A DNA stretch of 64,000 nt from a virus (taxonomy: Duplodnaviria > Caudoviricetes): IMG/VR virus record IMGVR_UViG_3300037249_000541, positions 42,382 through 106,381 of that record. The stretch is one strand, 5' to 3'. Of this stretch, positions 15,822-58,870 are shown piece by piece (positions within the stretch are counted from its first letter, which is position 1; every line of letters begins with the position of its first letter). The notes under the pieces were generated by a model. It was not told the DNA's origin. It saw only the letters and a list, made by a program, of their open reading frames with translations, and did no database searches. Both the position numbers and the translations under genes were made by a program.

Positions 15822-15824
15822 AAG

Positions 15825-16243: not shown

Positions 16244-16265
16244 ATTTCATTTTGTTTTTGATTAG

Positions 16266-16846: not shown

Positions 16847-16865
16847 ATTGTTTGTTTTTTTTTAG

Positions 16866-16950: not shown

Positions 16951-16955
16951 AATCC

Positions 16956-17276: not shown

Positions 17277-17306
17277 AATATTAAGTTTTATAAGTTTTAA
17301 TAGTCG

Positions 17307-17378
17307 TAGCCTCTATTGGAATCGAACCAATATCAAAAGATTAGAAGTCTTCTATTCTATCCGTTGAACTAAGGGGCC
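17307..17378 (-). tRNA. tRNA-Arg(TCT)
   Basis: GAAGA-CTTCTAA-TCTTT. Confidence 0.9.
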
Positions 17379-17383
17379 ATTAG

Positions 17384-17457
17384 TAGGAGCAGTAGGGCTT
17401 GAACCTACGACCGCCAAGGTATAAGCTTGGAACTCTAACCAACTGAGTTATGCTCCT
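17384..17457 (-). tRNA. tRNA-Ile(TAT)
   Basis: CCAAG-CTTATAC-CTTGG; full cloverleaf. Confidence 0.85.
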
Positions 17458-17541
17458 ATTGGGATGCCTTTTTTAACCAGAGGCATCAGAACTGACGATA
17501 CATTTAAAATTTGCAATTATGTATAAATAATCAAAAAAAAG

Positions 17542-17612
17542 TAGCGGATAGCGGACTCGAACCGCTGTGCCTTGGTTATGAGCCAAGTGAGTAACCTCTA
17601 CTCTAATCCGCA
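17542..17612 (-). tRNA. tRNA-Met(CAT), initiator-like
   Basis: CTTGG-CTCATAA-CCAAG; 1:72 mismatch. Confidence 0.85.
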
Positions 17613-17616
17613 GTGA

Positions 17617-17704
17617 GAGAAATAGAGGAATCGAACCTCTCGAAACTCTAAGAACACCAGCAAGCTGGTCTGTCCCTCATTGAGTAACGCCATCTTTATT
17701 TCTC
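17617..17704 (-). ncRNA. tRNA-like RNA without D-stem or anticodon loop
   Basis: Acceptor GAGAAAT/ATTTCTC, T-arm AGAGG-TTCGATT-CCTCT, central interrupted hairpin capped by CCAG-CTTG-CTGG. Confidence 0.6.
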
Positions 17705-17709
17705 ATTTG

Positions 17710-17780
17710 CGGAGAAGCAAGGAATCGAACCTCGATTAACTGGTTAACAGCCAGCCGCTCTGCCGTTGAGCTACATCTCC
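17710..17780 (-). tRNA. tRNA-Asn(GTT)
   Basis: GCTGG-CTGTTAA-CCAGT. Confidence 0.9.
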
Positions 17781-17948
17781 ATAAAAGCTCCTGCTATAAA
17801 TGAACAAAAAAAATTAAATATTACATTTAAGGTTCTACATTAATATATATAAAAGTAACAAACACACCACCCAAACTAACTTATTAAGCAGGAGCCATAA
17901 TATAAAAACTTACAAAAAACAAAAAAAACAAAAAAAAACTTCAAAAAG

Positions 17949-18030
17949 TACCCTAAGTAGGACTCGAACCTACACACCTCTCGGCACTTGCTCCTAAGGC
18001 AAGCGTGGCTGCCAGTTACACCATTAGGGC
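17949..18030 (-). tRNA. tRNA-Leu(TAG)
   Basis: CTTGC-CTTAGGA-GCAAG, variable arm. Confidence 0.92.
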
Positions 18031-18033
18031 ATT

Positions 18034-18101
18034 TGTTAGATGCTTATAACGTGCTACCGTTACACTAAGGAGTCGAACCTATCTTTTACATTCATCTAAC
18101 A
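18034..18101 (-). ncRNA. circularly permuted tRNA-elbow mimic
   Basis: Terminal stem TGTTAGATG/CATCTAACA encloses a T-arm (AGG-TTCGACT-CCT) followed by a D-arm (GTG-TAACGGTAG-CAC). Confidence 0.7.
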
Positions 18102-18104
18102 TTG

Positions 18105-18190
18105 TACTACTGACAAGAATCGAACTTGCAAGAACATTTCTGTTCGGTGGATTTTAAGTCCACTGCGTTTACCAGTTTCGCCACAGTAGC
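18105..18190 (-). tRNA. tRNA-Leu(TAA)
   Basis: GTGGA-CTTAAAA-TCCAC, variable arm. Confidence 0.92.
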
Positions 18191-18226
18191 ATCTGCATTT
18201 ACAATATGTCAAAGAACTATTGTTTG

Positions 18227-18298
18227 TTGCCCAACAAGGATTTGAACCCTGACCACAAGAACCAAAATCTTGGGTGCTAACCGTTACACCATTAGGCA
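18227..18298 (-). tRNA. tRNA-Gln(TTG)
   Basis: CAAGA-TTTTGGT-TCTTG. Confidence 0.9.
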
Positions 18299-39839: not shown

Positions 39840-39901
39840 AATTGATTGATTTATTAATTAATTAATAATACACCGTCTTTGGTTGGACGTGTGTTTTGTT
39901 T

Positions 39902-40031
39902 TGACACTTTACATTCTCTTTTTTCTCCATTGGACCAGTGTGGAATTGAACCACAGACGCAAGGATTTCAACCCTTCGCTCTACCTGCTGAGCTACCAGC
40001 CCCTAAAAGAGAATTATAATTGTAAGTGTCA
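39902..40031 (-). ncRNA. motif RNA A: shared helix enclosing a tRNA-Phe-like cloverleaf (6-nt anticodon loop)
   Basis: TGACACTTACA...TGTAAAGTGTCA flanks GGGGCTGGTAGCTCAG...AAGGG-TTGAAA-TCCTT...GTTCAATT. Confidence 0.8.
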
Positions 40032-40035
40032 TTTG

Positions 40036-40094
40036 TAGTGTAGCCAGGACTCGAACCTGGACGTGTTCCAACACACGTTCCTATATCTACACTA
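40036..40094 (-). ncRNA. D-armless tRNA-like element
   Basis: TAGTGTAG/CTACACTA acceptor, ACGTGT/ACACGT hairpin, CCAGG-TTCGAGT-CCTGG. Confidence 0.7.
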
Positions 40095-40735
40095 ACTCTT
40101 ACTACGTTGTCCTGGGCTAAAGCCCAACTCGGAGACATTCAGAGTGCCTTTTACGACGGCCCACGCCTTCGTGATAGAAGGATTGACGTGAGATTACGGA
40201 GAATCTCCTTGTCGTGGCTGTTGGAGGAACTGCCCCTCCTTGGTCTTGTTATCCCACAGCCTGTTGAATATGTTTCAATCCAACCCAGTCACCTCATTAG
40301 ATTTGATAATTCACCGTATAAAGTCATATGCTATTGATTACTCGCGGATTGACGTTTCAAACACATAAGTGAATACTCCGTACTGCCCTTTCTTCATCAC
40401 ATAAGTATTCTTGATATACAGCTCCTTATCGGCGTACAGGAGATGACTCATTTTCGCCCTTAGTCTTTCCCAAGTGTCAGTAGTCTTCCCCACTTCCAGA
40501 TTTACCATAAAAATCCCGCAAGATTTAAACAGTTGCAAGTTTACTCTTGGGTCTTACGTTGACCACACCGACCTGCTTCTCGGCAGGCTCATATCCATTT
40601 CGTCAGGCCACGGCACCAACTTGGCGTTTAACTATACTCCTTGCGACAATCTAACTGCGTCCAGTTAGCATTGGAAGTGTGTCGAAGTTCGCAACCTGGG
40701 TGTTCCCGTGCTGAGATAGCTGGAGAAAGAAATAT
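40095..40735 (-). ncRNA. candidate large structured RNA (about 640 nt)
   Basis: No credible ORF; GC-richer; many hairpins (CTAACTG/CAGTTAG, CCTGC/GCAGG, GAGATT/AATCTC, CCTTC/GAAGG, TGGGCT/AGCCCA). Confidence 0.55.
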
Positions 40736-40737
40736 CT

Positions 40738-41142
40738 CTACAAAAGAAAATCTTTATATACTTGCTTTAAATACCTTTCTTTTATTGCTTCTGCTTTTAC
40801 GTAAGCTGTTTCGTATTTTGCATAACCATTAGCATTGGTCTTGTAAAATCTTGCTTGACCATATGTTCGTTCGTCATACCATCTGGTTCCATAACTTTTA
40901 TATCCATATTCTCTGTCTGGTGAGAATATGATATTCCATAGAAGTATGAGAAATGTTCCATCGTCATTAATAATGATATCACTAAGCAATCCCATCCTTT
41001 TTACAGAGTCATCTTCTTCACCGAATCTTACAATAACAGGTTTCCCAAAAAACGGTTTAAGCTTATCTCTTGGTATTTCGATTGGTTTTTTCTTGCTCAT
41101 CTTGTTGAGTTTTTTGGATTGTTTGAATTGCTCTTGCTCCAC
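40738..41142 (-). CDS. hypothetical protein (likely start about 41100)
   Basis: ORF. Confidence 0.55.
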   Translation of the reverse strand: MEQEQFKQSKKLNKMSKKKPIEIPRDKLKPFFGKPVIVRFGEEDDSVKRMGLLSDIIINDDGTFLILLWNIIFSPDREYGYKSYGTRWYDERTYGQARFYKTNANGYAKYETAYVKAEAIKERYLKQVYKDFLL

Positions 41143-41371
41143 GACGGAGTAAGAAATCTCCTATTTGCATCTTTATACAATGCCAACGCATTTTACGTAA
41201 CTCTGTATCATACATCATATACCAGAGGTCGCATCCGTCGCATTTCTTTGTAGTTTCGAGATTGCAATCTATATCGCTTAATTGTTTAAGCTTCATAGAT
41301 TCAATCTCTTCAAACCTTTTGAATTCTTCTTCTATTTTATTCATAGCATTAAAATGTTAATTAATAAAATT

Positions 41372-41442
41372 AGACACTTGATTTTTTGGCAAAAAGCATA
41401 ATGGTACCGATAATCAGTCGGGAATCTTTTTTGTAAGTGTCT
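41372..41442 (-). ncRNA. motif RNA B with Ile(GAT)-like anticodon stem-loop
   Basis: AGACACTTACAA...CCGA-CTGATTA-TCGG...AAGTGTCT. Confidence 0.75.
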
Positions 41443-41446
41443 TTGT

Positions 41447-41580
41447 TGGAGTATTTGAAAAAAATTCATTGAGTCCAGACTAACCTGTTGTCGAGCGGCA
41501 CACTACCACGTGATGATTTACCGTAGCTGTTTCAGACATGGTGCGTCGCCTGGGATTTGAACCCAGATTTTTCAAACTCA
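41447..41580 (-). ncRNA. circularly permuted tRNA-like RNA
   Basis: Order is T-arm, GCGACGC-ACCA, spacer, GTGCCGC, D-arm (GAC-AACAGGTTA-GTC), closed by TTTGAAAAA/TTTTTCAAA. Confidence 0.65.
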
Positions 41581-41583
41581 TTG

Positions 41584-41705
41584 TGCAGCGAGCAGGAGTT
41601 GAACCTGCGTTTTCGGATTGGAATATTCTAACGATGTTTTTGTGAGTAAGTAATCTTACTTAAATGTTATAGTGCCGACGTTCTAACCAACTAAACTATC
41701 GCTGT
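41584..41705 (-). ncRNA. motif RNA C: tRNA (Gly TCC-like) with the shared helix inserted in the anticodon arm
   Basis: Intact acceptor, D and T arms; insert contains AAGTAA-GA-TTACTT-ACTCACAAAA. Confidence 0.75.
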
Positions 41706-41711
41706 GTGTAT

Positions 41712-41768
41712 TGTCACTTATTGGCAAAATTAGATAACAATTTGTTTTTTACTAATTTGTAAGTGACA
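41712..41768 (-). ncRNA. motif RNA D (minimal)
   Basis: TGTCACTTACAA...TAAGTGACA. Confidence 0.75.
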
Positions 41769-41837
41769 TCGAAAACATTAATAACCTAAACGTAATAAAA
41801 ACATAAATCCATGTTACAGCATCAAGATTACAAATTG

Positions 41838-41910
41838 TGTGTCAAGAGGGAATCGAACCCTCGACCCACGCATTAAAAGTGCGTTGCTCTACCAACTGAG
41901 CTATTGACAC
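41838..41910 (-). tRNA. tRNA-Lys(TTT)
   Basis: ACGCA-CTTTTAA-TGCGT. Confidence 0.93.
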
Positions 41911-41913
41911 ATA

Positions 41914-42047
41914 AAATGCAAATACTCCATATAGGTTAACTGTTCCATTCGACACGCCTCTTCCGAACATTCCAGGTCTGAGTCATACGGTTTAACAGCC
42001 ATGAGATAGAGATAGGTGTGCGTCATCTCAGGCGTGTATTTGCATTT
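41914..42047 (-). ncRNA. unknown structured RNA
   Basis: 12-bp terminal stem AAATGCAAATAC/GTATTTGCATTT; inner ACACGCCT/AGGCGTGT and TGAGAT/ATCTCA. Confidence 0.55.
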
Positions 42048-42059
42048 GTTTTTTTTATT

Positions 42060-42122
42060 TGATACTTATGTCAACGGGTTAGATTAAAAGTCTAATGTTT
42101 TTTATTTGTTTTGTAAGTATCA
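42060..42122 (-). ncRNA. motif RNA E with Lys(TTT) anticodon stem-loop
   Basis: TGATACTTACAA...TTAGA-CTTTTAA-TCTAA...AAGTATCA. Confidence 0.8.
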
Positions 42123-42142
42123 TCGTTCCATGAATGACGCGA

Positions 42143-42505
42143 TTAAACAACCGCGTTTTCTTTCTCTTTGTCAAAACATTTGTTCTGCAATATTTGACGG
42201 AAATATTCTTCTGCATCACCAAAAGATTCAAAATCTCTTTCGATGCAAGATTTATATTCTTTGCCTACCTTTAATAGTTTAAAGGTTTGGCTTAGTCCAT
42301 AAATAACACAGTTAGTTACCGTAAAATCAAATATTACTTTACCATTATCATCTTTTCGTGAAATAATAGAAATCTTTGCCATCATTAATGGTATGTAATG
42401 GCTATGTTCGTATTTCCTGAAATTCCACGAATTGATTCGTGTTAATGCAGAAATAAATGCTAACTTTAAAAATTGATAACTATTTGTCATTTCCCTTATA
42501 ATCAT
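42143..42505 (-). CDS. hypothetical protein
   Basis: ORF between RNA genes. Confidence 0.5.
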   Translation of the reverse strand: MIIREMTNSYQFLKLAFISALTRINSWNFRKYEHSHYIPLMMAKISIISRKDDNGKVIFDFTVTNCVIYGLSQTFKLLKVGKEYKSCIERDFESFGDAEEYFRQILQNKCFDKEKENAVV

Positions 42506-42509
42506 TAAA

Positions 42510-42565
42510 TGTCACTTGGGGTATTTTGATTAGCAGTCAAATCCATTTTGAATTTGTAAGTGACA
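42510..42565 (-). ncRNA. motif RNA F with Ser(GCT) anticodon stem-loop
   Basis: TGTCACTTACAA...TTTGA-CTGCTAA-TCAAA...AAGTGACA. Confidence 0.8.
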
Positions 42566-42573
42566 GTGTTTTG

Positions 42574-42686
42574 CGGACAGGATAGGACTCGAACCTATGA
42601 CATCGGCATTAACAGTGCAATTCGTTAGTTTTGTAAGTAACTAATGCTACTTGTGATACGCGCTCTACCAACTGAGCTACCTGTCC
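42574..42686 (-). ncRNA. motif RNA G: tRNA-Asn(GTT) interrupted by a 40-nt motif insert (42619-42658)
   Basis: Deleting the insert restores CGGCA-CTGTTAA-TGCCG; insert contains AAGTAGC-ATTA-GTTACTT-ACAAAA. Confidence 0.85.
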
Positions 42687-42746
42687 ATAATGACGCACCG
42701 ACCATGGAAGCTTTTACGGTGCGTCTAAGAGCAACATACTAATATT

Positions 42747-43274
42747 CTAATTCATAGATATTGAAAAATTTGACACTCTGACCATCGTGCTACGTATTCC
42801 ATCTACATCGTATTCTAACACTTCAATTTTACCATTCTCTGACAATGAACCATCCCAGTTAACCCAATCAACGTTTTTGATTTCATAGGTTTCTCCGTCT
42901 TCATCACATTTTAAAGTAAAACTTGGACGTGTCTTCGCACCTGCAATAAATGATTTCCAGGCCGTTATCAATATAGCTGCTTGGAAATCATTATTTACAT
43001 CTACCAATGGATAGTATTGAGTTAAATATTTTGCACATTCGTCATATAGCGAACATTTGGGCTCAAATGCTTTATATCTCAATACACTTATCATCCTGCT
43101 GAAGCAAATATCAATAATTTCATCTATTGTTAATTCTTCATTTAACTTTTGCCTGCCAATAACATATTGTTTGACAAACTCTTTAAGTGTTAAATACGAT
43201 TTTAACTCTTCACTTAATTCTTCAATATCTATCTCTTCCTTTTTCTTTGTTTCTTCTGTTTCTTCTTTCTCCAT
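42747..43274 (-). CDS. hypothetical protein
   Basis: 175-aa ORF. Confidence 0.6.
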   Translation of the reverse strand: MEKEETEETKKKEEIDIEELSEELKSYLTLKEFVKQYVIGRQKLNEELTIDEIIDICFSRMISVLRYKAFEPKCSLYDECAKYLTQYYPLVDVNNDFQAAILITAWKSFIAGAKTRPSFTLKCDEDGETYEIKNVDWVNWDGSLSENGKIEVLEYDVDGIRSTMVRVSNFSISMN

Positions 43275-43292
43275 TTTGTTATGAAATTTTAT

Positions 43293-43369
43293 TGTCGCTT
43301 GTGCTTGCTATCGCGGTTTTCGGCTGCGAGGTTTGCGTAACTCAATGTGTTATTGTTTTGTAAGCGACA
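43293..43369 (-). ncRNA. motif RNA H
   Basis: TGTCGCTTACAA...AAGCGACA (compensatory change); inner TCGC..CCGAAAA..GCGA hairpin. Confidence 0.75.
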
Positions 43370-43401
43370 TGAACTAAACCGTATATGAGATAAAACAAAA
43401 G

Positions 43402-43524
43402 TGGCGGAGGCTGGACTCGAACCAGCAACTTTCAAATTATCAGTTTGACTATCTTAACCTTAAAAGTATTGTTTTTGTAAGTAACATATGTTACTCAACT
43501 TTGTTTTTGTTGATATACTCCGCC
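43402..43524 (-). ncRNA. motif RNA I: tRNA-Ile(GAT) with about 50-nt motif insert in the D-loop
   Basis: GGCGGAG/CTCCGCC, TCAAA-CTGATAA-TTTGA; D-loop insert GAGTAAC-ATAT-GTTACTT-ACAAAA. Confidence 0.85.
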
Positions 43525-43531
43525 ATATAAT

Positions 43532-43633
43532 TGACACTTCTTGTAGATTTTGGATTTGAACCAAAGAACTTATGATTATTAATCATACGCTATAAACCAA
43601 CTTAGCTAATCTAAGATTATTTTGTAAGTGTCA
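43532..43633 (-). ncRNA. motif RNA J: helix enclosing a tRNA body with AAT anticodon
   Basis: TGACACTTACAA...D-arm, TATGA-TTAATAA-TCATA, T-arm...AAGTGTCA; shortened acceptor stem. Confidence 0.8.
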
Positions 43634-43640
43634 TTTTTTG

Positions 43641-43717
43641 CGGTGCTTACGGGAATCGAACCCGTCTGAATCTTCTGCGTGACAGGCAGACGGCCACACC
43701 AAGCAGCCCCAAGCACC
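43641..43717 (-). tRNA. tRNA-Asp(GTC)
   Basis: TCTGC-CTGTCAC-GCAGA. Confidence 0.9.
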
Positions 43718-43722
43718 ATAAT

Positions 43723-43816
43723 AGATACTTATTTGCTTTATGGAATCGAACCATATTTTGATGTCTTTCGACATCATAACAGAACCAATTGTAAACAATT
43801 GTTTTTGTAAGTATCT
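43723..43816 (-). ncRNA. motif RNA K: helix enclosing D/T arms with a GAAA-tetraloop hairpin in place of the anticodon arm
   Basis: AGATACTTACAA...TGATGTC-GAAA-GACATCA, TATGG-TTCGATT-CCATA...AAGTATCT. Confidence 0.8.
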
Positions 43817-43861
43817 TTCTATTCACCTAATTACTATGAAAAATTACAAACATTCCAATTG

Positions 43862-43936
43862 TAGTGGGTACGGGATTTGAACCCGTGACTTCAGCGTGAA
43901 AGGCTGATGACTTAAACCTGGCTTGTCGAACCCACC
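43862..43936 (-). tRNA. tRNA-Glu(TTC)
   Basis: TCAGC-CTTTCAC-GCTGA. Confidence 0.92.
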
Positions 43937-44004
43937 ATCCAAAGTATGCGTTATCACAACGCATACAAGATAATTTAAATTAATTATTATTTGACAAAAA
44001 AACG

Positions 44005-44114
44005 TGGGCGTGGAAGGAATCGAACCTTCTGATTTAATTGATGTGCCATTAATCATATTTTTTATTTGTGTGTATTGTAAGTGACAGAGTATCACTTGTT
44101 CTCTGTTCACGCCC
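44005..44114 (-). ncRNA. motif RNA L: tRNA shell with the motif hairpin replacing the D-arm
   Basis: GGGCGTG/CACGCCC, AAGTGATA-CTC-TGTCACTT-ACAA, GAAGG-TTCGATT-CCTTC. Confidence 0.8.
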
Positions 44115-44124
44115 ATATAAAAAT

Positions 44125-44224
44125 TGATACTTGTTTTATTGCTATTGGAATCGAACCAATGATACAAGGATTTTCAGTCCTTTGCTCTACCTCTGAGCTA
44201 AGCTTTTTGGTCTTGTAAGTATCA
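44125..44224 (-). ncRNA. motif RNA M: helix enclosing a tRNA-Phe(GAA) body lacking a full acceptor stem
   Basis: TGATACTTACAA...AAGGA-CTGAAAA-TCCTT...AAGTATCA. Confidence 0.85.
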
Positions 44225-44228
44225 TTTG

Positions 44229-44344
44229 TCGAGGAGGTCAGACTCGAACTGACGACCCTTGGAACCCCACGAATGTGATGTTCTTGTGAGTAACTCAAGT
44301 TACTTAATTCTAAACCAATGCTCTACCAGCTGAGCTACTCCTCG
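44229..44344 (-). ncRNA. motif RNA N: tRNA-Pro with about 40-nt motif insert in the anticodon arm
   Basis: CGAGGAG/CTCCTCG; insert AAGTAAC-TTGA-GTTACTC-ACAAG; TGGGG at the anticodon position. Confidence 0.8.
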
Positions 44345-44350
44345 ATAAAA

Positions 44351-44513
44351 AACAAGATTTTCTTTACTGCCTAATTCGTCTGGCACTTTCATTACGTCCG
44401 CATTATTTGTGCCAGTAATTGCCTCATGCAGTCGTTTTGTTGCGCGCATTTGACTGCCCTATTGGTTCTGCAAGGTTCATCTTTCTACTGCTATGAACGA
44501 GGAAAATCTTGTT
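44351..44513 (-). ncRNA. unknown multi-branch RNA
   Basis: 12-bp terminal stem AACAAGATTTTC/GAAAATCTTGTT; arms GTTCAT/ATGAAC, GCAGTC/GACTGC, CTGGCAC/GTGCCAG. Confidence 0.6.
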
Positions 44514-44516
44514 AAG

Positions 44517-44706
44517 TGCGCTCGTCAGGACTTAAACCTGAATCTACAAATTTACTATAATTATACCATAATATATCTTGACTAATCCCGTGAGCCATTG
44601 TTGATGCGCACACGACCGAGTTCCACGGCTATTTACATTCTTAGGCAATATATTATGATATTAAATTATAATTAATCAATTGCTTTAATTATTAAGCTAC
44701 AAGCGC
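44517..44706 (-). ncRNA. tRNA shell with an about 130-nt rod replacing the anticodon arm
   Basis: GCGCTTG/CGAGCGC acceptor, D-arm, TCAGG-TTTAAGT-CCTGA; rod CATAATATAT/ATATATTATG, CCGTG/CACGG. Confidence 0.65.
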
Positions 44707-44711
44707 GTGTT

Positions 44712-44777
44712 GGTTACTTATTTGTCAAATCCCTAATTTGATGCTTCAAAGCAAGCTATTTGAGTTTGTAAGTAACC
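44712..44777 (-). ncRNA. motif RNA O (first element of the array)
   Basis: GGTTACTTACAA...TAAGTAACC. Confidence 0.75.
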
Positions 44778-44781
44778 GCTG

Positions 44782-44825
44782 CAAAGATAACAACCCACAG
44801 CGAATCACGCAAGGGTTGTTATCTT
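44782..44825 (-). promoter_or_regulatory. Bacteroidetes-type promoter for the RNA array, within an inverted repeat
   Basis: TTG-N20-TATCTTTG ending 5 nt before element O; AAGATAACAACCC/GGGTTGTTATCTT palindrome. Confidence 0.6.
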
Positions 44826-44840
44826 AATGTTTGTTAAAAG

Positions 44841-46700
44841 TTAGATTACGTTGTTCCTGACAACATCGTAACGGTCGCTACGGAAGAACGACAGAAGAGC
44901 CGCATAAGAGTCGAACTGTTCCATATCCCTGAAATTGGTGAGGAACATCTCTATCTGTGAAGGGTTTGCTGGAATGTACATCAGATTTGGCACGGTTGTA
45001 ATCTGTGCATCTACCGATACCTGATTATTGATGTCCATAGCAATGATGAATGGTTTGAAGCCAAGAACTTCCTCTGCTTTTGAAAGCAAGTTCACAACTG
45101 AATCCAATCTATTCCTTGAAGAATTCCATTCGCCGTCAGAGATTATTGTCCAGATTGGATATCTCGCAAATTCATCTTTTACAGCATCTCCTTTGTCAAG
45201 AAGGTCTGAGATATGTTCAACGATTGCTTCGATATTAGTCCAACCCCAGTCAGCTTTCGCTCTCAAGCAGCAATACAGGTTTTTGTAGTTTTCCAAAAAC
45301 GATTTTGTTGTGTCAACAAGCGGAAGGTCAACTTTCTTGATGTTTGGCATCATCAATTGATTTCTAACTTTCTTCATGCCATCAACTTGCCTGTCTATTG
45401 TTGTTACAGGAATGACGTTGTTTCCGAACATGTACACTACGTTCCTTGCCAATGGGTCAGGGTTCTTGTAGAGGCATACAGAAGCAATGAAAGATGCGAA
45501 GTTGAATGCCATGCAACCATAATTGCTCATTGAGCCTGAACAATCTATGAATACCAAAGAGTTGTAGGGCAGATTCACTTTCTCCTGTACGAATGCTTCA
45601 ATTTTGAGTTCGTCCACATTAGCCGAACAAATCTGTTCGTACAACTCCTTGAAGTTTGTTGCGCCAGTTGTTACCTTAGCTGCTTTCTTCGCTTCCCTTA
45701 AAGCTGCTTGCAACTCAGGTGTTATAGGCTCACCATTCTGTACCTGCTCTTTGATGTCGCGTACTTTCTGTTGTGCTTCCTCTTTAAACTTCTCCCATTC
45801 CTCGAACCAAGTTTTCAGATTAGGCCATTTGAGGTCATCACTATCCTTCTTCTTGGAATAGAAGATTTTGTTCTTTACGCGGAATCTTGCTGATGCAGGC
45901 AAGTTGTTGAGCCATTCCTTGAATTGCATCTGGTCAAACTCTGCAATCTTTCCTGTAGAGAAGAGTACGCTTTCGAGTTCGCCGTTGTACTCACTGCGCC
46001 ATTTACGATAACCTACGAAGTTGACTTTTTCTTCGTTGTTTCCAACATAGCGATACTCCCAACCCATTCTCTGTGAAAGCATCTTGAGAAATTCTCCTTT
46101 TGCTTTCATATTGGCTTTTGTCTCTGGCAACATACGAGTGTGTCCTTGACGAACACCAAACCTTGGAGGTGTCAAGAATTTCGCAACGCAAGTCTTGGCG
46201 AATGGATTGTTGCCACGAACAATTTTCTCCACGAATTCGCAGAGAGATTCTCTGTACCAACCCTCGTTGAACAAACACCTATTGCTTACGATTGTCGGGT
46301 TTTTTGCTTTGACTTTTGCCGTCTGTACGCGAGACACAAACAACGAGTCCATGCACTGATACTCGCTGATTATGCCTTTGCCGAGGAATACTTTGAACTG
46401 TTCTCTTGCGTTTTTCATCATCCAGTCAAGTACAACGTTGAATCCTTTGCGGTTGCTGTTGCCACCATTGTCACGCTGTTTACGACCGAATATGTGATGC
46501 TGACGGCCTGTGATGTCGCCAATACCAATTAGAATTGAATAGAATAACTGCAATTTCTCCTTGCTTGTTGCTTCAGAGTATGCAGCTTCTATCATGTCAA
46601 CGGTGATTGTATTGCCCATATTTTGGAATAACATCATCATGCCGTCGCATCCCTGAAAGGGATTTTCCGATGTTTTGTTGAATGTTACTATTGATGCCAT
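44841..46700 (-). CDS. TROVE/DUF2828-like helical domain plus vWA domain protein (Ro60-like)
   Basis: MIDAS DCSGSM, T in WTN, ISDGEW; N-terminal GDI..R...GG...R..F and AKF..P motifs; start at ATG 46700 after an A-rich leader. Confidence 0.75.
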   Translation of the reverse strand: MASIVTFNKTSENPFQGCDGMMMLFQNMGNTITVDMIEAAYSEATSKEKLQLFYSILIGIGDITGRQHHIFGRKQRDNGGNSNRKGFNVVLDWMMKNAREQFKVFLGKGIISEYQCMDSLFVSRVQTAKVKAKNPTIVSNRCLFNEGWYRESLCEFVEKIVRGNNPFAKTCVAKFLTPPRFGVRQGHTRMLPETKANMKAKGEFLKMLSQRMGWEYRYVGNNEEKVNFVGYRKWRSEYNGELESVLFSTGKIAEFDQMQFKEWLNNLPASARFRVKNKIFYSKKKDSDDLKWPNLKTWFEEWEKFKEEAQQKVRDIKEQVQNGEPITPELQAALREAKKAAKVTTGATNFKELYEQICSANVDELKIEAFVQEKVNLPYNSLVFIDCSGSMSNYGCMAFNFASFIASVCLYKNPDPLARNVVYMFGNNVIPVTTIDRQVDGMKKVRNQLMMPNIKKVDLPLVDTTKSFLENYKNLYCCLRAKADWGWTNIEAIVEHISDLLDKGDAVKDEFARYPIWTIISDGEWNSSRNRLDSVVNLLSKAEEVLGFKPFIIAMDINNQVSVDAQITTVPNLMYIPANPSQIEMFLTNFRDMEQFDSYAALLSFFRSDRYDVVRNNVI

Positions 46701-46739
46701 TTTGATTATTTTTAATATGTTTTCGTGTTGTAAGTAACA
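46683..46739 (-). promoter_or_regulatory. motif helix enclosing the vWA gene start codon (putative autoregulatory operator)
   Basis: TGTTACTTACAA...ATGGCATCAAT-AGTAACA. Confidence 0.7.
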
Positions 46740-46787
46740 ATTCTCGTGGGAAGACTCCACACGAGAGTTGCAATGAGAGAGTTAGAA

Positions 46788-47279
46788 CTACTTGTTGTCA
46801 GTAGCAGGGGGTTCAGTTGTTGGTGCAGGTTCTGTTACAGGTTCGTCAGTTGAAAGAAGCTCTTTCTTCCTTGCTTCCAATGCAGCTACTCTCTGCTCTG
46901 GAGTCATCGAAGCATCTTTTATTGCTTCAATCTCTTTGTCGATTGCTGCAACTGCTTGTGCGTTCTTGTCGTCTTCTGCCTTCCATAGACGGTAGCCATA
47001 GATGTAGTAGACGAGGTCTTTCTGACGTTCAATCCTGTCGATTCGCTCTTTCTCTTCGTCAGACTGAGACCAAGGGTCGCCGTCCTGAGCGTCCTGGAAT
47101 TTCTTCTTCAGACCATCGTAGATTTTCTTCAACGAGCCTACATTGAGTTCATTCATAAGCTGCCATGGGTTGTACCTCTGACCAAGGTTTGTAACGATTG
47201 TTTCGCCAGCCACTGTGAAGGCGGCAATCAGTGTGAACAAGGAAGCCTTGTCACTTGTAGTGAAGTTTACTTTTGCCAT
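46788..47279 (-). CDS. coiled-coil protein between RNA ligase and vWA genes
   Basis: L...L....L..IY..L.K...V..I...MTPEQ; resembles 39384-39839. Confidence 0.65.
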   Translation of the reverse strand: MAKVNFTTSDKASLFTLIAAFTVAGETIVTNLGQRYNPWQLMNELNVGSLKKIYDGLKKKFQDAQDGDPWSQSDEEKERIDRIERQKDLVYYIYGYRLWKAEDDKNAQAVAAIDKEIEAIKDASMTPEQRVAALEARKKELLSTDEPVTEPAPTTEPPATDNK

Positions 47280-47303
47280 TTTGTTTTTGTTTTATTTGGT
47301 TAT

Positions 47304-48086
47304 TTACTTAGCCGCTTTCAGTTTCCTAAAATCGACTGTTTTGATTTTTGTTATCACTCTGTTGCCCATTCTGTCGTAGATTGGTACTTCTGGGCGCAAT
47401 ACCAATCCTTCTGCATCAAGGTTCTTATCTTCGGCTATTGCTGACTTGAAGCCAATAGATACAACATCTATTGCTTCTTCTATTGTCATTTTGCCATAGA
47501 ATGGAACTGTTGGTGCATTGAGTTTCTCGGCAATATCTTTCGTCGAATCCCACTCCAAGTACAAGTTATTGACCTTAGTGTCGAATACAATGAATGATAC
47601 GCCGTTACGAATGTAACCACCTCCGCTTTGTATTCCTGCTCCATATCCTTCTCCATAGATTGTCCATTTTGTAGGAATATCATCGATTGTTTCCCACTTA
47701 TGGTCTTTCCATTCCTCGTAAGGAATATAAGACTTCAACCCCCAAGCTGCTAATACTTTTTCAGTGGGATAGTTGTCTTCAAGGTGCTTCCTCAATGTTG
47801 GTGGAATCTGTGCGTTATCTGTTTTACCCTTGTAGTCAACTTTGAAATTAACTCCAAGAATCTGACGTATACCTTCTTTGTCTGCTTCTGAATAGACAAT
47901 CTCGATGGTTACTTCTAATCGAATATTTGTGCCATCTATCTTCTCAAAGGCAAGCCAGATGCAATTTTTAAGGTACTCGACAATTTTATCGGAGTAGTCT
48001 CCAACAATTATCAAGTCCTTTGAATCACGCTTAAAGATTGTGTTAATCTTTTGATACGTGTTCTCTGAACGTTTTTGTTTGCTCAT
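47304..48086 (-). CDS. ATP-dependent RNA ligase (Rnl2-like adenylation domain)
   Basis: EKIDGTN, YGE, F..FD, EGLV, K.K nucleotidyltransferase motifs; no OB domain. Confidence 0.88.
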   Translation of the reverse strand: MSKQKRSENTYQKINTIFKRDSKDLIIVGDYSDKIVEYLKNCIWLAFEKIDGTNIRLEVTIEIVYSEADKEGIRQILGVNFKVDYKGKTDNAQIPPTLRKHLEDNYPTEKVLAAWGLKSYIPYEEWKDHKWETIDDIPTKWTIYGEGYGAGIQSGGGYIRNGVSFIVFDTKVNNLYLEWDSTKDIAEKLNAPTVPFYGKMTIEEAIDVVSIGFKSAIAEDKNLDAEGLVLRPEVPIYDRMGNRVITKIKTVDFRKLKAAK

Positions 48087-48101
48087 AACTATTAGTTTTA
48101 A

Positions 48102-48233
48102 TTAATCCTCTGGTTCATCATCAAGGTCTTCATAAGGGCATCCTACGCAAGACCTTAATTGGCATCCATAGCATTCATCATCTTCAAATTGAAGACGACG
48201 AGCATCTTGTTGCTGTTGCTGTTGTTGTTCCAT
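48102..48233 (-). CDS. 43-aa acidic CxxC-x4-CxxC microprotein
   Basis: MEQQQQQQQDARRLQFEDDECYGCQLRSCVGCPYEDLDDEPED. Confidence 0.6.
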   Translation of the reverse strand: MEQQQQQQQDARRLQFEDDECYGCQLRSCVGCPYEDLDDEPED

Positions 48234-48263
48234 TTGTTTTTGTTGTTTGTTGTTTGTTGTTTG

Positions 48264-48416
48264 TTACATAATGTCATCTATGTCAAGACCGTCAAGGTCA
48301 TCATAGATGTCATTATAATCATCGTCTTCTTTATCGTCATCATCCCAATTATCAGGAGAATAGTATGCACATATAGTACACCATCCGTGACGACAGTATT
48401 TACATTCTATGTTCAT
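48264..48416 (-). CDS. 50-aa acidic CxxC-x4-CxxC microprotein
   Basis: MNIECKYCRHGWCTICAYYSPDNWDDDDKEDDDY... Confidence 0.6.
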   Translation of the reverse strand: MNIECKYCRHGWCTICAYYSPDNWDDDDKEDDDYNDIYDDLDGLDIDDIM

Positions 48417-48440
48417 TTTCTTTTTGCTTTAATTTGTTTG

Positions 48441-48522
48441 TATCGGTGGTGGGAATCGAACCCACACTCCTTTCGGATTCAGATTTTGAGTCTGATACGT
48501 CTGCCAGTTTCGCCACACCGAC
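48441..48522 (-). tRNA. tRNA-Leu(CAA)
   Basis: TCAGA-CTCAAAA-TCTGA, variable arm. Confidence 0.92.
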
Positions 48523-54648: not shown

Positions 54649-57600
54649 CTATTGCAAAAAGTTTCCAACAGCTTCTTCTGCATTTAAGTTTCCATACATT
54701 GTATGGAAGAATGGATTTACAACCTTATTCCCAAACAAATACTTAAATCCATAAGAATGACCTTTCATTTTTCCTCTTTTAACTTCCTCGAACCAATTGG
54801 GAATCCATAAGGCTTTCCAAGTATCAAGCAAATTTGTTAATGTATTAACCATTGGAAATGGAGATTTAAACAAACGAACAGATTCTCCAACTATTGAAAA
54901 TGGTGTCAATGCACCTAATTCAGACTGCAATCTTATAGATTGATACATCAACATATTGTATGCCCAATCTTCAAAATTATCATCATCATCGCCACCATCC
55001 CAATCTGCCATTAAATTAACCATGCATACAGAAACAAATGTGGATATTTCTATTAAAACTTTTTTACAGTTGGCTTTTTCTTCTTCACTCATAGAATCCC
55101 AATGGACTCCAATATTAAATTTAAATTCTTTTAAATCTTCACATAATGCGACTACAAAATTAGCACAAGAACGATAATATCCTTCTTCCCATTCTTCTGT
55201 ATCATAATTAAAATCAAGTTTGCTGAATCTTTTTGTATAAGATTTCCATATCCATTTTCTAAATAAATAAGCAGCTCTACCTATTGCATATCTCTGAATC
55301 AAGTTAGCATCTATTTTATTATATATACCATGCATACCTTGATTTATTGATGCTATTCTTGTTTGTATTCTAATAATATCATTGGAAGTAAAGGCTGTGC
55401 CATCCATTTTTGTCAATCCATCTTTTACCTTTAATCTTGCTCCTAATCCTTTATTTGTATTAGAATATGAACCATCTTCTTGTATATATTCAACTTCAAG
55501 AGCATCCCATAGATTATATACATTACCTTTTGCGTCTTTAAGTTTTGTTTGATGAGCGACAGACAATGCAGTTCTGTGCGACATATTATGTTCACCAGCA
55601 TCTTGAAGAAACATCATTGCTTCACCAGCCTTCACCCTACTGAATTTAGTTTTTTTATCCCATTCAAGGTTGTTAAATCCGTCCTTATCAAATTCCTGAC
55701 CAACATCAAACATCTCGGTAAATAGAGATAATTTATCATCTTTGATTCTATTTCCAAGATTTCCAAGCATAGGAATTAAATTCATTGCATAAGTGGCGTC
55801 GGCCCAAGCCAAATCAGCAGGAGTAAAGAACCTTTTAGAAAATGTCTCTATATTCATCATTGCATAACCAGTAGCAAGGTTTGAAAGACCATTTAATAAT
55901 GAAAATGACATAGATGCTCTTGCTGTCCACGCATTAAGCTTGTCAACAGCTTTTGTTAATGACACCTTTCCTATTTGTTTATCATCTTTATAAAAGCGAG
56001 CATATACAGCCATATCAAGATACCCATCAAACCTTTTGTATAAATTAGACTTACCATTATCTATGTATGTGGTTTGTACTCCTTGTGCATTATTATTATT
56101 TGTAATTTCATTAGCAACAGCCTCTTCATTCTGCATCTTCTTTTTAAACCAAGATATAACAGGTATTCCATTATCTTCAATTGGTATCTCTCTTTGCTTC
56201 AATACATTTCTCGTTAATTCAAGCTGATTAATAATTTTATTCATTTCAGAATACTCTATCGCCTTAGCAGCATAAGCAGCCAATGTTGAAACTGCATCTT
56301 CTGATACGTCATCCAAGGATGTCAAATCATCAAAATTAATATTATTGTAATATATTGGCAATATTTTAATCTCTTCACCATCCATATTAGTAAATGCAGT
56401 TTTAAAACCAGCCATATTATCCTCATCTTCTTGTGTCCTATTCATCCATTCGTCTTTAATAGACTCTTTGAATGTTTTCATAGCAGCAGGAAGACTACCA
56501 GAATCTTTAAGCCTTTCTAATGTATCTTTGCGAATATTTATAATTTGTCCTTCCTTAACGGTATATGGAGGATACATTCTGTCAAACTTATCTTTATTTT
56601 TCATAAAGAACGTATAAAATCTTGCCTTTGCAGGATTTTTCATTATTTCAACATACTCTTTTGAACCTTTTTTTACATACATACCAGTTTTGTATTCGCG
56701 GCCAAAGTATTCACGCTCATACATCCATTTAGTATCCTTTATGCCAGCTTGCTCAAGTAATGCTGCTTCTTTTTTTAGTTGATTTACAAATTCAATAGCT
56801 TTTAACCTTGCTATATTTTTATGTTGCTTAACTATTTTATCACTAAGTCTTAATACTCTATCTGGTGCATCTCTCATTGCATCAAGCAATCTTTCAACAC
56901 CCCACATATCTCTATCTGCACGAGATAGTTTGTCTTCAATATTAACAATCTTACCCTTCTCTTTCCCCCAAGGTATTTTCTGAGCTTTTTCAACTTCATA
57001 TTCTTTCATAAAAGAAGACACAACCTTTTTCTGTTCAAGGTCAACTTTTAATCTTAACTGCTTATACAAAACTGAAAATATACCATTAAGTTCTTCATAA
57101 CCAGTTTTAGGACTAAGTTTTAATGAATCTTTATATGCTTGCATAAGCTCATACATAACAATACCTCTTGACTCTTTGAACTCTTCTCCATTTGAATCAA
57201 ATTCTTTTGCAAGAGTAACCATATTTTTAGGTAAGACTCTTGGCCTTTTAATCTTTTTCCTATTATTCTTAATGGCCTCTCTTCTTGCTTCCCTTCTTAA
57301 TCTATTTGTCTCAGCTTTTGCATATTCTTTCTCAGCTTCCGTTATAAGTTTTTCAAGATTGCCAACTATTTCATTTTGATTAAAGAATAGCGACTCTATG
57401 TTCTTTTCAAGGACAGTAGATATTTGATTATACATTTGAAGCTCAAGGTCTATTTCCCTTAGCACTTGCGCTCTTTGTGCATCATTAATAGTAGGTTGAC
57501 TTACTTGCTCTTTATATTTCTTAATTTTGTATTGCAAATTATTATAATACATAAATATTGCAGTTTCAAAATTATTTTCTTCATAAAGTTCTTTTATTTC

Positions 57601-58869: not shown

Positions 58870-58870
58870 T

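What the first reader, a model, noticed from the sequence alone, without database searches (positions are those of the whole stretch)
41584..44344. tRNA genes interrupted by the motif hairpin at different positions: intron-like inserts or built-in handles
Seen: in G, removing exactly 42619-42658 restores a perfect tRNA-Asn anticodon arm (CG|GCA-CTGTTAA-TGCCG). In I the insert of about 50 nt is in the D-loop of an otherwise intact tRNA-Ile(GAT). In N (Pro) and C (Gly-like) it is in the anticodon arm, and in L it replaces the D-arm. In these inserts the helix strands are in swapped order (AAGTAAC-loop-GTTACTTACAA), a circular permutation of the end-pairing form. The inserts are far too short for group I/II introns. 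Inference: either they are excised and rejoined by the neighbouring ligase (protein-dependent tRNA splicing in a phage), or they are retained as tethers.
Basis: partly seen in the sequence, partly recalled or inferred. Interest (0 to 1): 0.85.

Follow-up and report, generated by a model that had tools for sequence, protein, structure and literature searches.

The report
Phage tRNAs carrying a Ro60-like handle
Five tRNA-shaped genes of this uncultivated 106-kb phage really are interrupted by 40-50 extra bases, but the extra piece is most likely a permanent docking hairpin for a Ro60-like ring protein encoded next door, not an intron, which makes them an undescribed tRNA-shaped variant of Ro60/Y-RNA particles.

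Summary
Five tRNA-like genes on the minus strand carry a 7-bp hairpin followed by ACAA. It sits at 28|29 (Asn), 31|32 (Gly-like), 33|34 (Pro) and in the D-loop (Ile), and it replaces the D-arm in the fifth. Removing exactly 42619-42658 gives a tRNA-Asn whose junction 22-mer occurs in 36 ordinary tRNA-Asn genes elsewhere.

The same helix, in the same orientation to its cargo, closes 11 other small RNAs of the array as a leader/trailer stem, with compensatory base changes. It also brackets the start codon of the adjacent 639-aa gene in 38 of 46 related loci. That protein's model best matches Ro60, with a helical ring plus a vWA/MIDAS domain, although Pfam TROVE does not detect it.

The RNA ligase is adjacent in only 1 of 48 related loci. 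It is absent from 4 of 5 complete related genomes that still carry interrupted tRNAs. I found no EndA, RtcB, BHB motif or ribozyme. Linkers drift freely, while tRNA bodies and the helix are conserved.

Best reading, at about 0.6: these are retained handles that make tRNA-shaped Y-RNA-like partners. Splicing gets about 0.12. No RNA data exist.

The scan has reached the same reading on other phage genomes with different Ro60-like families. I found no paper describing it.

The parts
44229..44344 (-). tRNA-Pro(GGG)-like body, 116 nt. The insert is 44269-44311 (43 nt) in the anticodon loop at 33|34. The module hairpin is 44288-44305 and its ACAA tail is 44284-44287.
   Evidence: Rfam tRNA 52.4 bits, model positions 1-71, with 48 nt in place of 5. 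Arms found. Compensatory changes in the anticodon stem against L009.
44005..44114 (-). tRNA-like body 'L'. It has a perfect 7-bp acceptor stem and T-arm, and the module hairpin (44079-44097, ACAA 44075-44078) stands where the D-arm should be. Its anticodon-like stem has a 9-nt loop.
   Evidence: Sequence, arm pairing, acceptor and T-arm detection. It is 100% identical in L009. It falls below the Rfam threshold.
43402..43524 (-). tRNA-Ile(GAU)-like body with discriminator A73. The module hairpin (43479-43496, ACAA 43475-43478) lies inside the D-loop, 5' of G18G19.
   Evidence: Rfam partial match at 43410-43465. An intact canonical anticodon arm lies 3' of the module. Linkers diverge with indels against L009 while the body is identical.
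42574..42686 (-). tRNA-Asn(GUU) body with a 40-nt insert at 42619-42658, between positions 28 and 29. The module hairpin is 42635-42652 and its ACAA tail is 42631-42634.
   Evidence: Rfam 48.2 bits. The spliced junction 22-mer is found in 36 ordinary tRNA-Asn genes. The 28|29 site recurs in relatives.
41584..41705 (-). tRNA-Gly(UCC)-like body (alternative register Trp CCA) with a 49-nt insert at 41625-41673, at 31|32. The module hairpin is 41644-41661 and its ACAA tail is 41640-41643.
   Evidence: Rfam 47.6 bits. The 26:44 pair changes from G.A to U.G against L009.
39903..44776 (-). Array holding 10 of the window's 11 terminal-form copies of the same module. The 5' arm plus ACAA and the 3' arm lie 44-118 nt apart and enclose tRNA-like bodies or single stem-loops. 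The array is interspersed with three ordinary tRNAs (Glu, Asp, Lys) and two small ORFs.
   Evidence: Arms pair 7/7, including a compensated GUCGCUU/AAGCGAC copy. tRNAs.
46684..46738 (-). The eleventh terminal-form copy of the module, bracketing the start region of the Ro60-like gene. This is a likely autoregulatory site.
   Evidence: 6/7 pairs here. The same arrangement is present in 38 of 46 related loci, with the ATG inside the enclosed loop.
44841..46760 (-). Ro60-like protein. The ORF is 639 aa, but homologues start near M21. It has an N-terminal helical solenoid plus a C-terminal vWA domain with a DxSxS...T...D MIDAS motif.
   Evidence: AlphaFold2 model with pLDDT 76.5. Foldseek's top hits are Ro60 chains at E 2e-6 over the full length. 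VIA-align gives Z 11.3-13.5 to Ro60, Rsr and phage phiLo Ro60 over residues 36-634. MIDAS columns are invariant. No Pfam TROVE hit.
46788..47279 (-). 163-aa helical protein, the conserved upstream neighbour of the Ro60-like gene.
   Evidence: tblastn finds it in 43 of 48 loci. Alignment A2. The model is helical and has no PDB match with E <= 0.001.
47304..48086 (-). ATP-dependent RNA ligase of the Rnl2-type nucleotidyltransferase family. It is an accessory gene, not a conserved part of the system.
   Evidence: PF09414 at E 7.6e-16, phrog_548, weak TIGR02307. Adjacent in only 1 of 48 related loci and absent from 4 of 5 complete relatives.

Best explanation
The inserts are not introns. Each is one copy of a conserved protein-binding module: a 7-bp helix (5'-GNYACUU paired with AAGURNC-3') followed by single-stranded ACAA. 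This phage lineage attaches the module to about 16 small RNAs.

When the cargo has no closing stem of its own, the module forms the terminal leader/trailer stem. When the cargo is a complete tRNA body closed by its own acceptor stem, the module is capped by a tetraloop and grafted inside the body, in the D-loop or the anticodon arm. In both forms the ACAA side of the helix faces the cargo.

The inferred binding partner is the Ro60-like (helical ring + vWA/MIDAS) protein encoded immediately upstream. It also appears to bind the same module on its own mRNA start.

Inferred life cycle: host RNase P and 3' processing trim the acceptor end as for any tRNA, and the hairpin stays. The mature RNA is then a tRNA-shaped, Y-RNA-like partner that tethers the Ro60-like protein to whatever recognises tRNA bodies or anticodon stem-loops. 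Candidates include host anticodon nucleases, tRNA enzymes and PNPase.

What is shown: the anatomy, the covariation, the co-occurrence with the protein gene, and the fold resemblance. What is inferred: binding, retention of the hairpin, and the downstream function.
For: 1. One module, two topologies, same orientation to the cargo. There are 11 terminal copies with 7/7 pairing and compensatory changes in the outer three pairs, plus one ACUU-to-GCUU change compensated by AAGU-to-AAGC. There are 5 hairpin copies. Across relatives, pairs 1-3 take four to six pair types in the terminal form (two to five in the hairpin form), while pairs 4-5 and the ACAA tail stay fixed.

2. Link to the protein. In the 48 related loci the module lies on the gene strand at the gene start and just downstream. 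It encloses the start codon in 38 of 46 loci. Hairpins with 7/7 pairing number 33 on the gene strand against 1 on the other strand.

3. The protein resembles Ro60 over its whole length. Foldseek gives E 2e-6. VIA-align gives Z up to 13.5, with 404 residues aligned to phage phiLo Ro60. The MIDAS residues are invariant.

4. Known Ro60 systems work this way. Y RNAs encoded beside Ro60 carry a tRNA-like domain and are not spliced (PMC4201824). Phage phiLo Ro60 binds phage-encoded Y-like RNAs (PMC12135203).

5. Selection pattern against the 88% relative. Bodies and helix arms are conserved, while hairpin loops and linkers change freely, with indels in the D-loop linkers.

6. All 5 hairpin copies in the window sit in bodies with intact acceptor stems: perfect in four, and one A1.C72 mismatch in the Gly-like body. 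Terminal-form cargos have defective acceptor stems (2-3 mismatches). This fits one closing helix per RNA.

7. Among relatives, 65 distinct hairpin-bearing RNAs have at least 6/7 acceptor pairs and a canonical T-arm. The module sits in the D region in at least 20, and exactly at 28|29 after a conserved C27-G28 in 7 that carry different anticodon hairpins: Asn, Gln, His, Pro and UCA. This looks like a scaffold that displays varied anticodon hairpins.
Against: - No RNA-level data exist, so retention of the hairpin is inferred.
- The Ro60 assignment rests on a predicted fold. TM-scores are only 0.32-0.39, and Z of 12-13.5 is in a range that helical repeats can reach without kinship. Pfam TROVE does not detect the protein even at E <= 10.
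- The module sequence differs from the known Ro60-binding motifs, GNCGAA and GGUCCGA (PMC4201824).
- Anticodon stems are maintained across the insert by compensatory changes.
- About half of the interrupted bodies can be restored to a fully canonical anticodon arm (31 of 65, against 149 of 232 ordinary tRNAs). That is also what a spliced, decoding tRNA would show.
- The Ile-type body has A73 and the Asp-type relatives have G73, which fits aminoacylation identity.
- In the Pro- and Gly-like genes the insert breaks the anticodon loop, so these two would present it poorly if the insert stays.
Confidence: 0.6

Rival explanations
1. The inserts are protein-spliced introns. An endonuclease removes them and a ligase (the phage Rnl2-type enzyme or host RtcB) rejoins the halves to give decoding tRNAs. 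The hairpin might serve as a licensing mark.
For: - Removing the Asn insert restores a sequence identical to natural tRNA-Asn genes.
- Anticodon stems keep pairing across the insert through compensatory changes.
- Canonical 7-nt loops are restorable in 31 of 65 hairpin-bearing bodies.
- An RNA ligase gene lies two genes upstream.
- Unexplained short 'introns' have been reported in Lak megaphage tRNAs (10.1101/356790).
Against: - The ligase is adjacent in only 1 of 48 related loci.
- It is absent from 4 of 5 complete relatives that still have long interrupted tRNAs.
- The genome has no tRNA_int_endo or RtcB.
- By inspection, no bulge-helix-bulge motif can be drawn at the Asn junctions.
- No ribozyme or intron family matched even at E <= 5.
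- The conserved neighbour p163 has no nuclease-like fold.
- Insert sites differ (28|29, 31|32, 33|34, D-loop before or after G18G19, D-arm replaced), and linkers between helix and body vary from 6 to 20 nt, so neither a ruler from the helix nor a fixed tRNA position defines the cuts.
- The identical module ends 11 RNAs and sits on an mRNA, where splicing has no meaning.
- Orthologous 28|29 bodies have shifted or 8-nt loops.
Confidence: 0.12
2. The module is a protein-controlled processing or stability switch. Binding of the Ro60-like protein cages phage tRNAs and pre-tRNAs, or directs their cleavage into halves, and so regulates tRNA supply without religation.
For: - In the 50% relative, terminal-form modules enclose near-intact tRNAs: tRNA-Ser(GCU) and tRNA-Lys(UUU) in L010, each with one acceptor-stem mismatch. 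RNase P and 3' trimming could free them.
- The module on the protein's own start codon suggests a regulatory RNA-binding protein.
- Ro60 is known as an RNA quality-control factor working with exonucleases (PMC4201824, PMC12135203).
Against: - Internal hairpins cannot be removed by end-trimming.
- Many terminal-form cargos are not tRNAs, or have defective acceptor stems.
- No nuclease was found in the conserved operon.
Confidence: 0.15
3. These are tRNA pseudogenes disrupted by a small mobile or repeated element and now decaying.
For: - Two of the five duplicate isoacceptors that are intact elsewhere in the genome: Asn at 17709-17780 and Pro at 15147-15220.
- Some relatives have non-canonical anticodon loops.
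Against: - Interrupted bodies are conserved across relatives whose neighbouring protein is only 40-50% identical.
- Acceptor stems and T-arms are near perfect in 65 distinct cases.
- Compensatory changes occur.
- Inserts share only the helix and ACAA. They have no terminal repeats or target duplications, and their linkers are unrelated.
- The module is strand-specific and confined to this array.
Confidence: 0.03

Closest known systems
YrlA-type Y RNAs bound by Ro60/Rsr in bacteria and phages (Rfam RF02553; Chen et al. 2014, PMC4201824; Wang et al. 2018, bioRxiv 10.1101/312249)
   Same: - Small RNAs are encoded next to a Ro60-type ring protein on the same strand.
- One module is a protein-binding stem and the other mimics a tRNA, with D- and T-arms.
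- In some operons an RNA ligase is nearby.
- The RNAs are not spliced.
   Different: - Here the protein is not detected by the TROVE model.
- The stem motif is ACUUACAA-based, not GNCGAA.
- There are about 16 RNAs rather than 1-4.
- In five of them the RNA ends sit at a normal acceptor stem and the protein stem is an internal graft, whereas YrlA has its ends in the Ro60 stem and a looped 'acceptor'.
- Real anticodon stem-loops are kept.
- The Rfam YrlA model scores only 20 bits against a 69-bit threshold.
Thermus phage phiLo Ro60 with phage-encoded Yrl1/Yrl2 (PMC12135203; PDB 9KOP, 9L5Y)
   Same: A phage-encoded Ro60-fold protein with adjacent phage-encoded partner RNAs. It is among the top structural matches, with 403-404 residues aligned at Z 11.3-12.9.
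   Different: The phiLo RNAs are classical stem-bulge-stem Y RNAs with a CGAA motif, not tRNA bodies. There are two RNAs rather than an array, and sequence identity is about 12-14%.
Archaeal and eukaryal protein-spliced tRNA introns, including non-canonical positions (PMC4090602)
   Same: Short inserts (tens of nt) at varied positions of tRNA genes, including the anticodon stem. Removal restores a canonical tRNA.
   Different: There is no bulge-helix-bulge motif. The phage has no EndA or RtcB. The host is bacterial. The insert is a conserved protein-site hairpin that is also used outside tRNAs.
'Enigmatic introns' of Lak megaphage tRNAs (Devoto et al., 10.1101/356790)
   Same: Gut phage tRNA genes that are longer than expected and carry conserved short inserts of unknown fate.
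   Different: No homologue of the Ro60-like protein was found in 50,697 GenBank phage records. I did not examine the Lak inserts for this module.

Membership tests
Ro60/TROVE-Y RNA ribonucleoprotein | Protein with a TROVE (HEAT-repeat ring) domain followed by a vWA domain | tested here: inconclusive
   Fold level: Ro60 chains are the top full-length matches. Foldseek gives E 2e-6 with TM 0.32-0.39. VIA-align gives Z 11.3-13.5 over residues 36-634. Sequence level: Pfam TROVE is not detected in the protein or in the whole genome. The profile search reaches no Pfam-annotated relative.
Ro60/TROVE-Y RNA ribonucleoprotein | MIDAS motif (DxSxS...T...D) in the vWA domain | tested here: met
   D406, S408, S410, T508 and D542 are invariant in 30 homologues. 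There is a weak profile match to the alpha2delta vWA domain.
Ro60/TROVE-Y RNA ribonucleoprotein | Partner ncRNAs encoded beside the protein gene, with a conserved stem formed by paired strands | tested here: met
   16 module copies lie within 7 kb of the gene on its strand. The arrangement is conserved in 48 loci.
Ro60/TROVE-Y RNA ribonucleoprotein | Known Ro60-binding sequence (bacterial GNCGAA or vertebrate GGUCCGA bulged helix) | tested here: not met
   The module consensus is GNYACUU-ACAA paired with AAGURNC, with no bulge. Known motifs are from PMC4201824.
Ro60/TROVE-Y RNA ribonucleoprotein | Physical binding of the RNA by the protein | not testable with these tools
   Needs EMSA, co-immunoprecipitation or a structure.
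YrlA (Rfam RF02553) | Match to the YrlA covariance model: ends in the Ro60 stem, T-arm, looped acceptor, then D-arm | tested here: not met
   The best match is 44147-44279 at 20.1 bits, against a gathering score of 69. The topology differs, because the ends lie at the acceptor stem.
Protein-spliced (BHB) tRNA introns | Bulge-helix-bulge motif at the two junctions | tested here: not met
   By inspection of the Asn junctions, there is no 4-bp central helix between the intron start and the start of exon 2, or between the end of exon 1 and the intron end. MFE folds show none. The other four were not examined exhaustively.
Protein-spliced (BHB) tRNA introns | Splicing endonuclease (EndA family) and RtcB-type ligase available | tested here: not met
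   PF01974 and PF01139 are absent from the complete phage genome. The host is unknown. The control run shows that Bacteroides thetaiotaomicron has RtcB.
Self-splicing group I or II tRNA introns and small ribozymes | Catalytic RNA core (over 200 nt for group I) or a match to a ribozyme family | tested here: not met
   The inserts are 40-49 nt. No intron or ribozyme family matched in 41300-44900 at E <= 5.
Functional decoding tRNA (after or without removal of the insert) | 7-bp acceptor stem, canonical T-arm, 5-bp anticodon stem with a 7-nt loop (U33, R37) | tested here: inconclusive
   Asn and Ile meet all features once the insert is ignored. Pro has a U31.U39 mismatch here but an A-U pair in L009. 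Gly has C31.U39. L has no D-arm and a 9-nt loop. Across relatives, 31 of 65 are restorable under the strict rule, against 149 of 232 ordinary tRNAs.

The most novel reading that the evidence does not exclude
The hairpin marks tRNAs for a protein-dependent cut-and-join reaction unrelated to the archaeal/eukaryal BHB-EndA pathway. The Ro60-like protein would then license maturation of phage tRNAs, which would amount to a bacterial-virus tRNA splicing system. A second novel reading that is not excluded: the handle-bearing tRNAs are aminoacylated and act in translation, or against anticodon nucleases, while still tethered to the ring protein.
Probability: 0.1. Interest if true: 0.9.

Novelty: new variant of a known kind. 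Interest (0 to 1): 0.7.

Why it matters
Ro60/Y-RNA particles are conserved from bacteria to humans, yet what the tRNA-like half of bacterial Y RNAs is for remains open. This phage lineage has over 1,100 metagenomic protein homologues, in genomes of 90-185 kb. It attaches one protein handle to whole tRNAs, to isolated anticodon hairpins and to the protein's own mRNA.

That gives a natural series of constructs for testing what a Ro60-type ring does with tRNA-shaped cargo. One possibility is bait or shield against host anticodon nucleases. Another is recruitment of host RNA enzymes.

It also warns annotators that over-long phage tRNA genes with short inserts need not be intron-containing.

Tried and rejected
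- Close relatives among GenBank phages: blastn of the region found only tRNA matches. tblastn with the Ro60-like protein found nothing.
- A single-protein scan of IMG/VR found nothing. The alignment-based scan then gave 45 loci.
- Pfam, PHROGs and NCBIfam give no family for the 639-aa or the 163-aa protein.
- A profile search against PDB sequences gave only a weak vWA match.
- The profile search of 1.84 billion representatives found 183 clusters. None of the 10 remote members tested has a Pfam domain, so there is no sequence bridge to TROVE.
- The ESM Atlas points to the viral DUF2828/DUF7788 families. This is only a lead, and no paper in the library characterises that family.
- The p163 model has no PDB match with E <= 0.001.
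- In-silico deletion followed by ARAGORN was too permissive to place inserts. I replaced it with explicit acceptor, T-arm and anticodon-arm rules.
- I tested whether interrupted bodies have degenerate anticodon arms more often than ordinary tRNAs. The difference is modest (48% against 64% pass), so I do not use it as an argument.
- No intron-less allele of the phage-specific Asn gene was found. All 36 junction matches are unrelated tRNA-Asn genes, with at most 59 of 73 positions identical.
- A promoter/terminator reading of the motif was rejected, because the two arms covary at variable spacing.
- My first reading of 41584-41705 as Trp(CCA) was demoted in favour of Gly(UCC), after checking the Rfam alignment and the length of the variable loop.

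Full report
WHAT IS THERE

The window is part of a complete 106,381-bp virus record with direct terminal repeats. Its genes lie on the minus strand, and it has a P22-type portal. Besides an ordinary cluster of 12 tRNAs at 15069-18298, there is a second RNA-rich stretch at 39900-48500.

In that stretch the Rfam tRNA model gives full-length matches that need a large insertion:
- 44229-44344: 48 nt in place of 5.
- 42574-42686: 53 nt in place of 13.
- 41584-41705: 58 nt in place of 9.
- 43410-43465: a partial match.

ARAGORN misses all of these.

THE INSERTS

- Asn. Deleting exactly 42619-42658 joins C27-G28 to G29-C30-A31 and gives a 73-nt tRNA-Asn(GUU). The 22-nt sequence across that junction occurs exactly in 6 IMG/VR and 30 metagenome contigs. 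In each it is part of an ordinary uninterrupted tRNA-Asn gene, identical to the phage body through the D-arm and most of the anticodon arm.
- Pro. The Rfam alignment puts a 43-nt insert at 33|34, just before anticodon GGG.
- The 'Gly-like' gene. The alignment favours UCC, with a 49-nt insert at 31|32 and a 4-nt variable loop. A Trp(CCA) register is possible.
- The Ile(GAU) body (43402-43524). It has a perfect acceptor stem, T-arm and anticodon arm, and the hairpin sits in the D-loop ahead of G18G19.
- 'L' (44005-44114). It has a perfect acceptor stem and T-arm but no D-stem, and the hairpin stands in its place.

ONE MODULE IN TWO TOPOLOGIES

Sixteen copies of a core (ACUUACAA, or a one-base variant of it) lie on the minus strand between 40027 and 46735.
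- In 11 copies, the three bases upstream plus ACUU pair 7/7 with a partner 44-118 nt downstream. The changes are compensatory: GAU/AUC, GAC/GUC, GUC/GAC, GUU/AAC, and one GCUU/AAGC copy.
- In 5 copies, the partner lies 14-15 nt upstream and forms a 7-bp hairpin with a 4-5 nt loop.
- In both forms, the helix end that carries ACAA faces the cargo. The other end is either open (the RNA termini) or capped by the loop.
- All five hairpin copies sit in bodies with intact acceptor stems: perfect in four, and one A1.C72 mismatch in the Gly-like body. The terminal-form tRNA-like cargos have defective acceptor stems.

So each RNA has one closing helix and one module.

LINK TO THE NEIGHBOURING PROTEIN

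The 639-aa ORF at 44841-46760 has over 1,100 unnamed metagenomic homologues. It has no homologue in GenBank phages.

I fetched an 88% relative (L009), a 50% relative (L010/L011) and 45 IMG/VR loci at 39-49% identity, from genomes of 90-185 kb.
- In these loci the module lies on the gene strand, at the gene start and just downstream.
- Hairpins with 7/7 pairing number 33 on the gene strand against 1 on the other.
- In 38 of 46 loci the module brackets the start codon. The 3' arm is built from conserved codons near residue 9. This arrangement is typical of an RNA-binding protein that represses its own translation.

WHAT THE PROTEIN IS

Pfam, PHROGs and NCBIfam are silent. TROVE is not found in the genome even at E <= 10.

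The alignment shows an invariant DxSxS...T...D MIDAS motif.

An AlphaFold2 model (pLDDT 76.5) has Ro60 chains as its best matches over its whole length:
- Foldseek: E 2e-6, probability 1.0, TM 0.32-0.39.
- VIA-align: Z 13.5-11.3, with up to 404 residues aligned to Thermus phage phiLo Ro60. vWA-only matches stay at or below Z 11.7.

I call the protein Ro60-like at the level of architecture, meaning a helical ring plus a vWA domain. Homology to TROVE is not shown by sequence. The ESM Atlas places it near the viral DUF2828/DUF7788 clusters, which is only a lead.

WHAT IS NOT CONSERVED

The Rnl2-type RNA ligase is adjacent only here and in L009, that is in 1 of 48 related loci. It is absent from 4 of 5 complete relatives. 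Three of those four that I scanned (L013, L016, L020) carry long interrupted tRNAs.

The conserved upstream neighbour is instead a 163-aa helical protein, present in 43 of 48 loci. It has no recognisable fold and no catalytic motif.

The genome has no EndA-type endonuclease and no RtcB. No ribozyme or intron family matches the region.

EVOLUTIONARY PATTERN

Against L009, tRNA bodies and helix arms are conserved, while hairpin loops change (UUGA to UCAA).
- The D-loop linkers of the Ile body diverge with indels, while the body stays identical.
- Anticodon stems keep pairing across the insert through double changes. In Pro, G30-C40 becomes A-U and U31.U39 becomes A-U. In Gly, G26.A44 becomes U.G.

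Across all loci I found 65 distinct hairpin-bearing RNAs with at least 6/7 acceptor pairs and a canonical T-arm.
- The module lies 5' of an intact canonical anticodon arm (the D region) in at least 20.
- It lies in the 5' strand of the anticodon stem in 9. Seven of these are exactly at 28|29 after a conserved C27-G28, and they carry different anticodon hairpins: Asn, Gln, His, Pro and UCA.
- D-loop inserts occur both before and after G18G19.
- Some orthologues have 8- or 12-nt loops.
- Overall, interrupted bodies pass a strict canonical-arm test only modestly less often than ordinary tRNAs (31 of 65 against 149 of 232). I draw no conclusion from that difference.

INTERPRETATION

The module behaves as a protein-binding site, not as an intron.
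- It closes RNAs that have nothing to splice.
- It sits on an mRNA start.
- It keeps a fixed orientation to its cargo.
- Unconstrained linkers of variable length connect it to the tRNA body.

No fixed tRNA position and no fixed distance from the helix defines the would-be cut sites, and in 'L' there is nothing to restore.

The nearest known system is Ro60 with YrlA-type Y RNAs. These are unspliced, tRNA-mimicking and encoded beside Ro60, sometimes with an RNA ligase in the operon (PMC4201824, PMC7790460). Phage versions are known (PMC12135203, PMC7824862).

The differences here are the divergent protein, the different stem motif, the size of the array, and the topology of these five RNAs: normal acceptor ends with an internal handle, and real anticodon hairpins retained.

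I therefore rate 'retained handle, tRNA-shaped Y-like RNA' at about 0.6, a processing or caging switch at 0.15, true splicing at 0.12, and pseudogenes at 0.03.

The preserved anticodon arms, and the agreement between discriminator base and anticodon (Ile with A73 here, Asp with G73 in relatives), keep a tRNA-like biochemical role open. That role could be aminoacylation or recognition by anticodon-directed enzymes.

The function beyond tethering is inference. A bait or shield against host anticodon nucleases, or recruitment of host RNA enzymes, would fit the varied anticodon hairpins displayed on one scaffold.

PRIOR WORK

Full-text searches found no paper linking Ro60-type proteins to such interrupted tRNAs or to this phage group. 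The Lak megaphage paper reports unexplained short inserts in phage tRNAs.

Earlier reports of this scan on other genomes, with other Ro60-like families and other handle motifs, reached the same reading. They are AI notes and do not count as independent evidence.

Noticed in passing
window 46684-46738 (-); also L010:9966-10030 and 36 further loci: The handle module encloses the start codon of the Ro60-like gene in 38 of 46 related loci. Its 3' arm is made of conserved codons (about K-S-N). This is probably translational autoregulation.
   Followed up: partly
window 46788-47279 (-): A 163-aa helical protein is the conserved upstream neighbour of the Ro60-like gene (43 of 48 loci). Its invariant residues are F6, T7, L50, W70, G95, T126 and P127. 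It has no family and no fold match. It is a candidate third component of the particle.
   Followed up: partly
L010:9106-9472; L013:4331-4726; L020:5017-5504: Relatives encode a tmRNA (tag GNNTYRIAA in L010) just upstream of the p163/Ro60-like operon. This window has none at that place.
   Followed up: no
L010:12355-12530; L020:8894-9035: Nested or overlapping tRNA-like bodies. A T-arm hairpin precedes the acceptor 5' strand, and the 3' arm of a terminal-form module lies in the variable-arm position of one body while a second acceptor/T-arm set follows. The topology is unresolved.
   Followed up: no
window 42625-42648 (-): In the Asn insert a 6-bp alternative hairpin (UUAGUU/AACUAA) would display ACUUACAA as its loop, in place of the module helix. 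It is conserved in L009. It could be a switch or a coincidence.
   Followed up: no
window 41447-41580 (-) and 18034-18101 (-): Other first-reader notes describe circularly permuted tRNA-like RNAs (T-arm before D-arm, YrlA-like order) without the ACAA module. I did not examine them.
   Followed up: no
L055:8693-8811: One 28|29-type handle-bearing body in a relative carries the loop UUUCAAG, giving anticodon UCA (opal-suppressor type).
   Followed up: no
window 43861-43936, 43640-43717, 41837-41910 (-): Three ordinary tRNAs (Glu UUC, Asp GUC, Lys UUU) sit inside the array without any module.
   Followed up: no
window 54649-63814 (-): Two very large ORFs (1406 and 1647 aa) lie downstream. I did not analyse them. 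Together with the P22-like portal and the roughly 100-kb genome with terminal repeats, they may help place the phage taxonomically.
   Followed up: no
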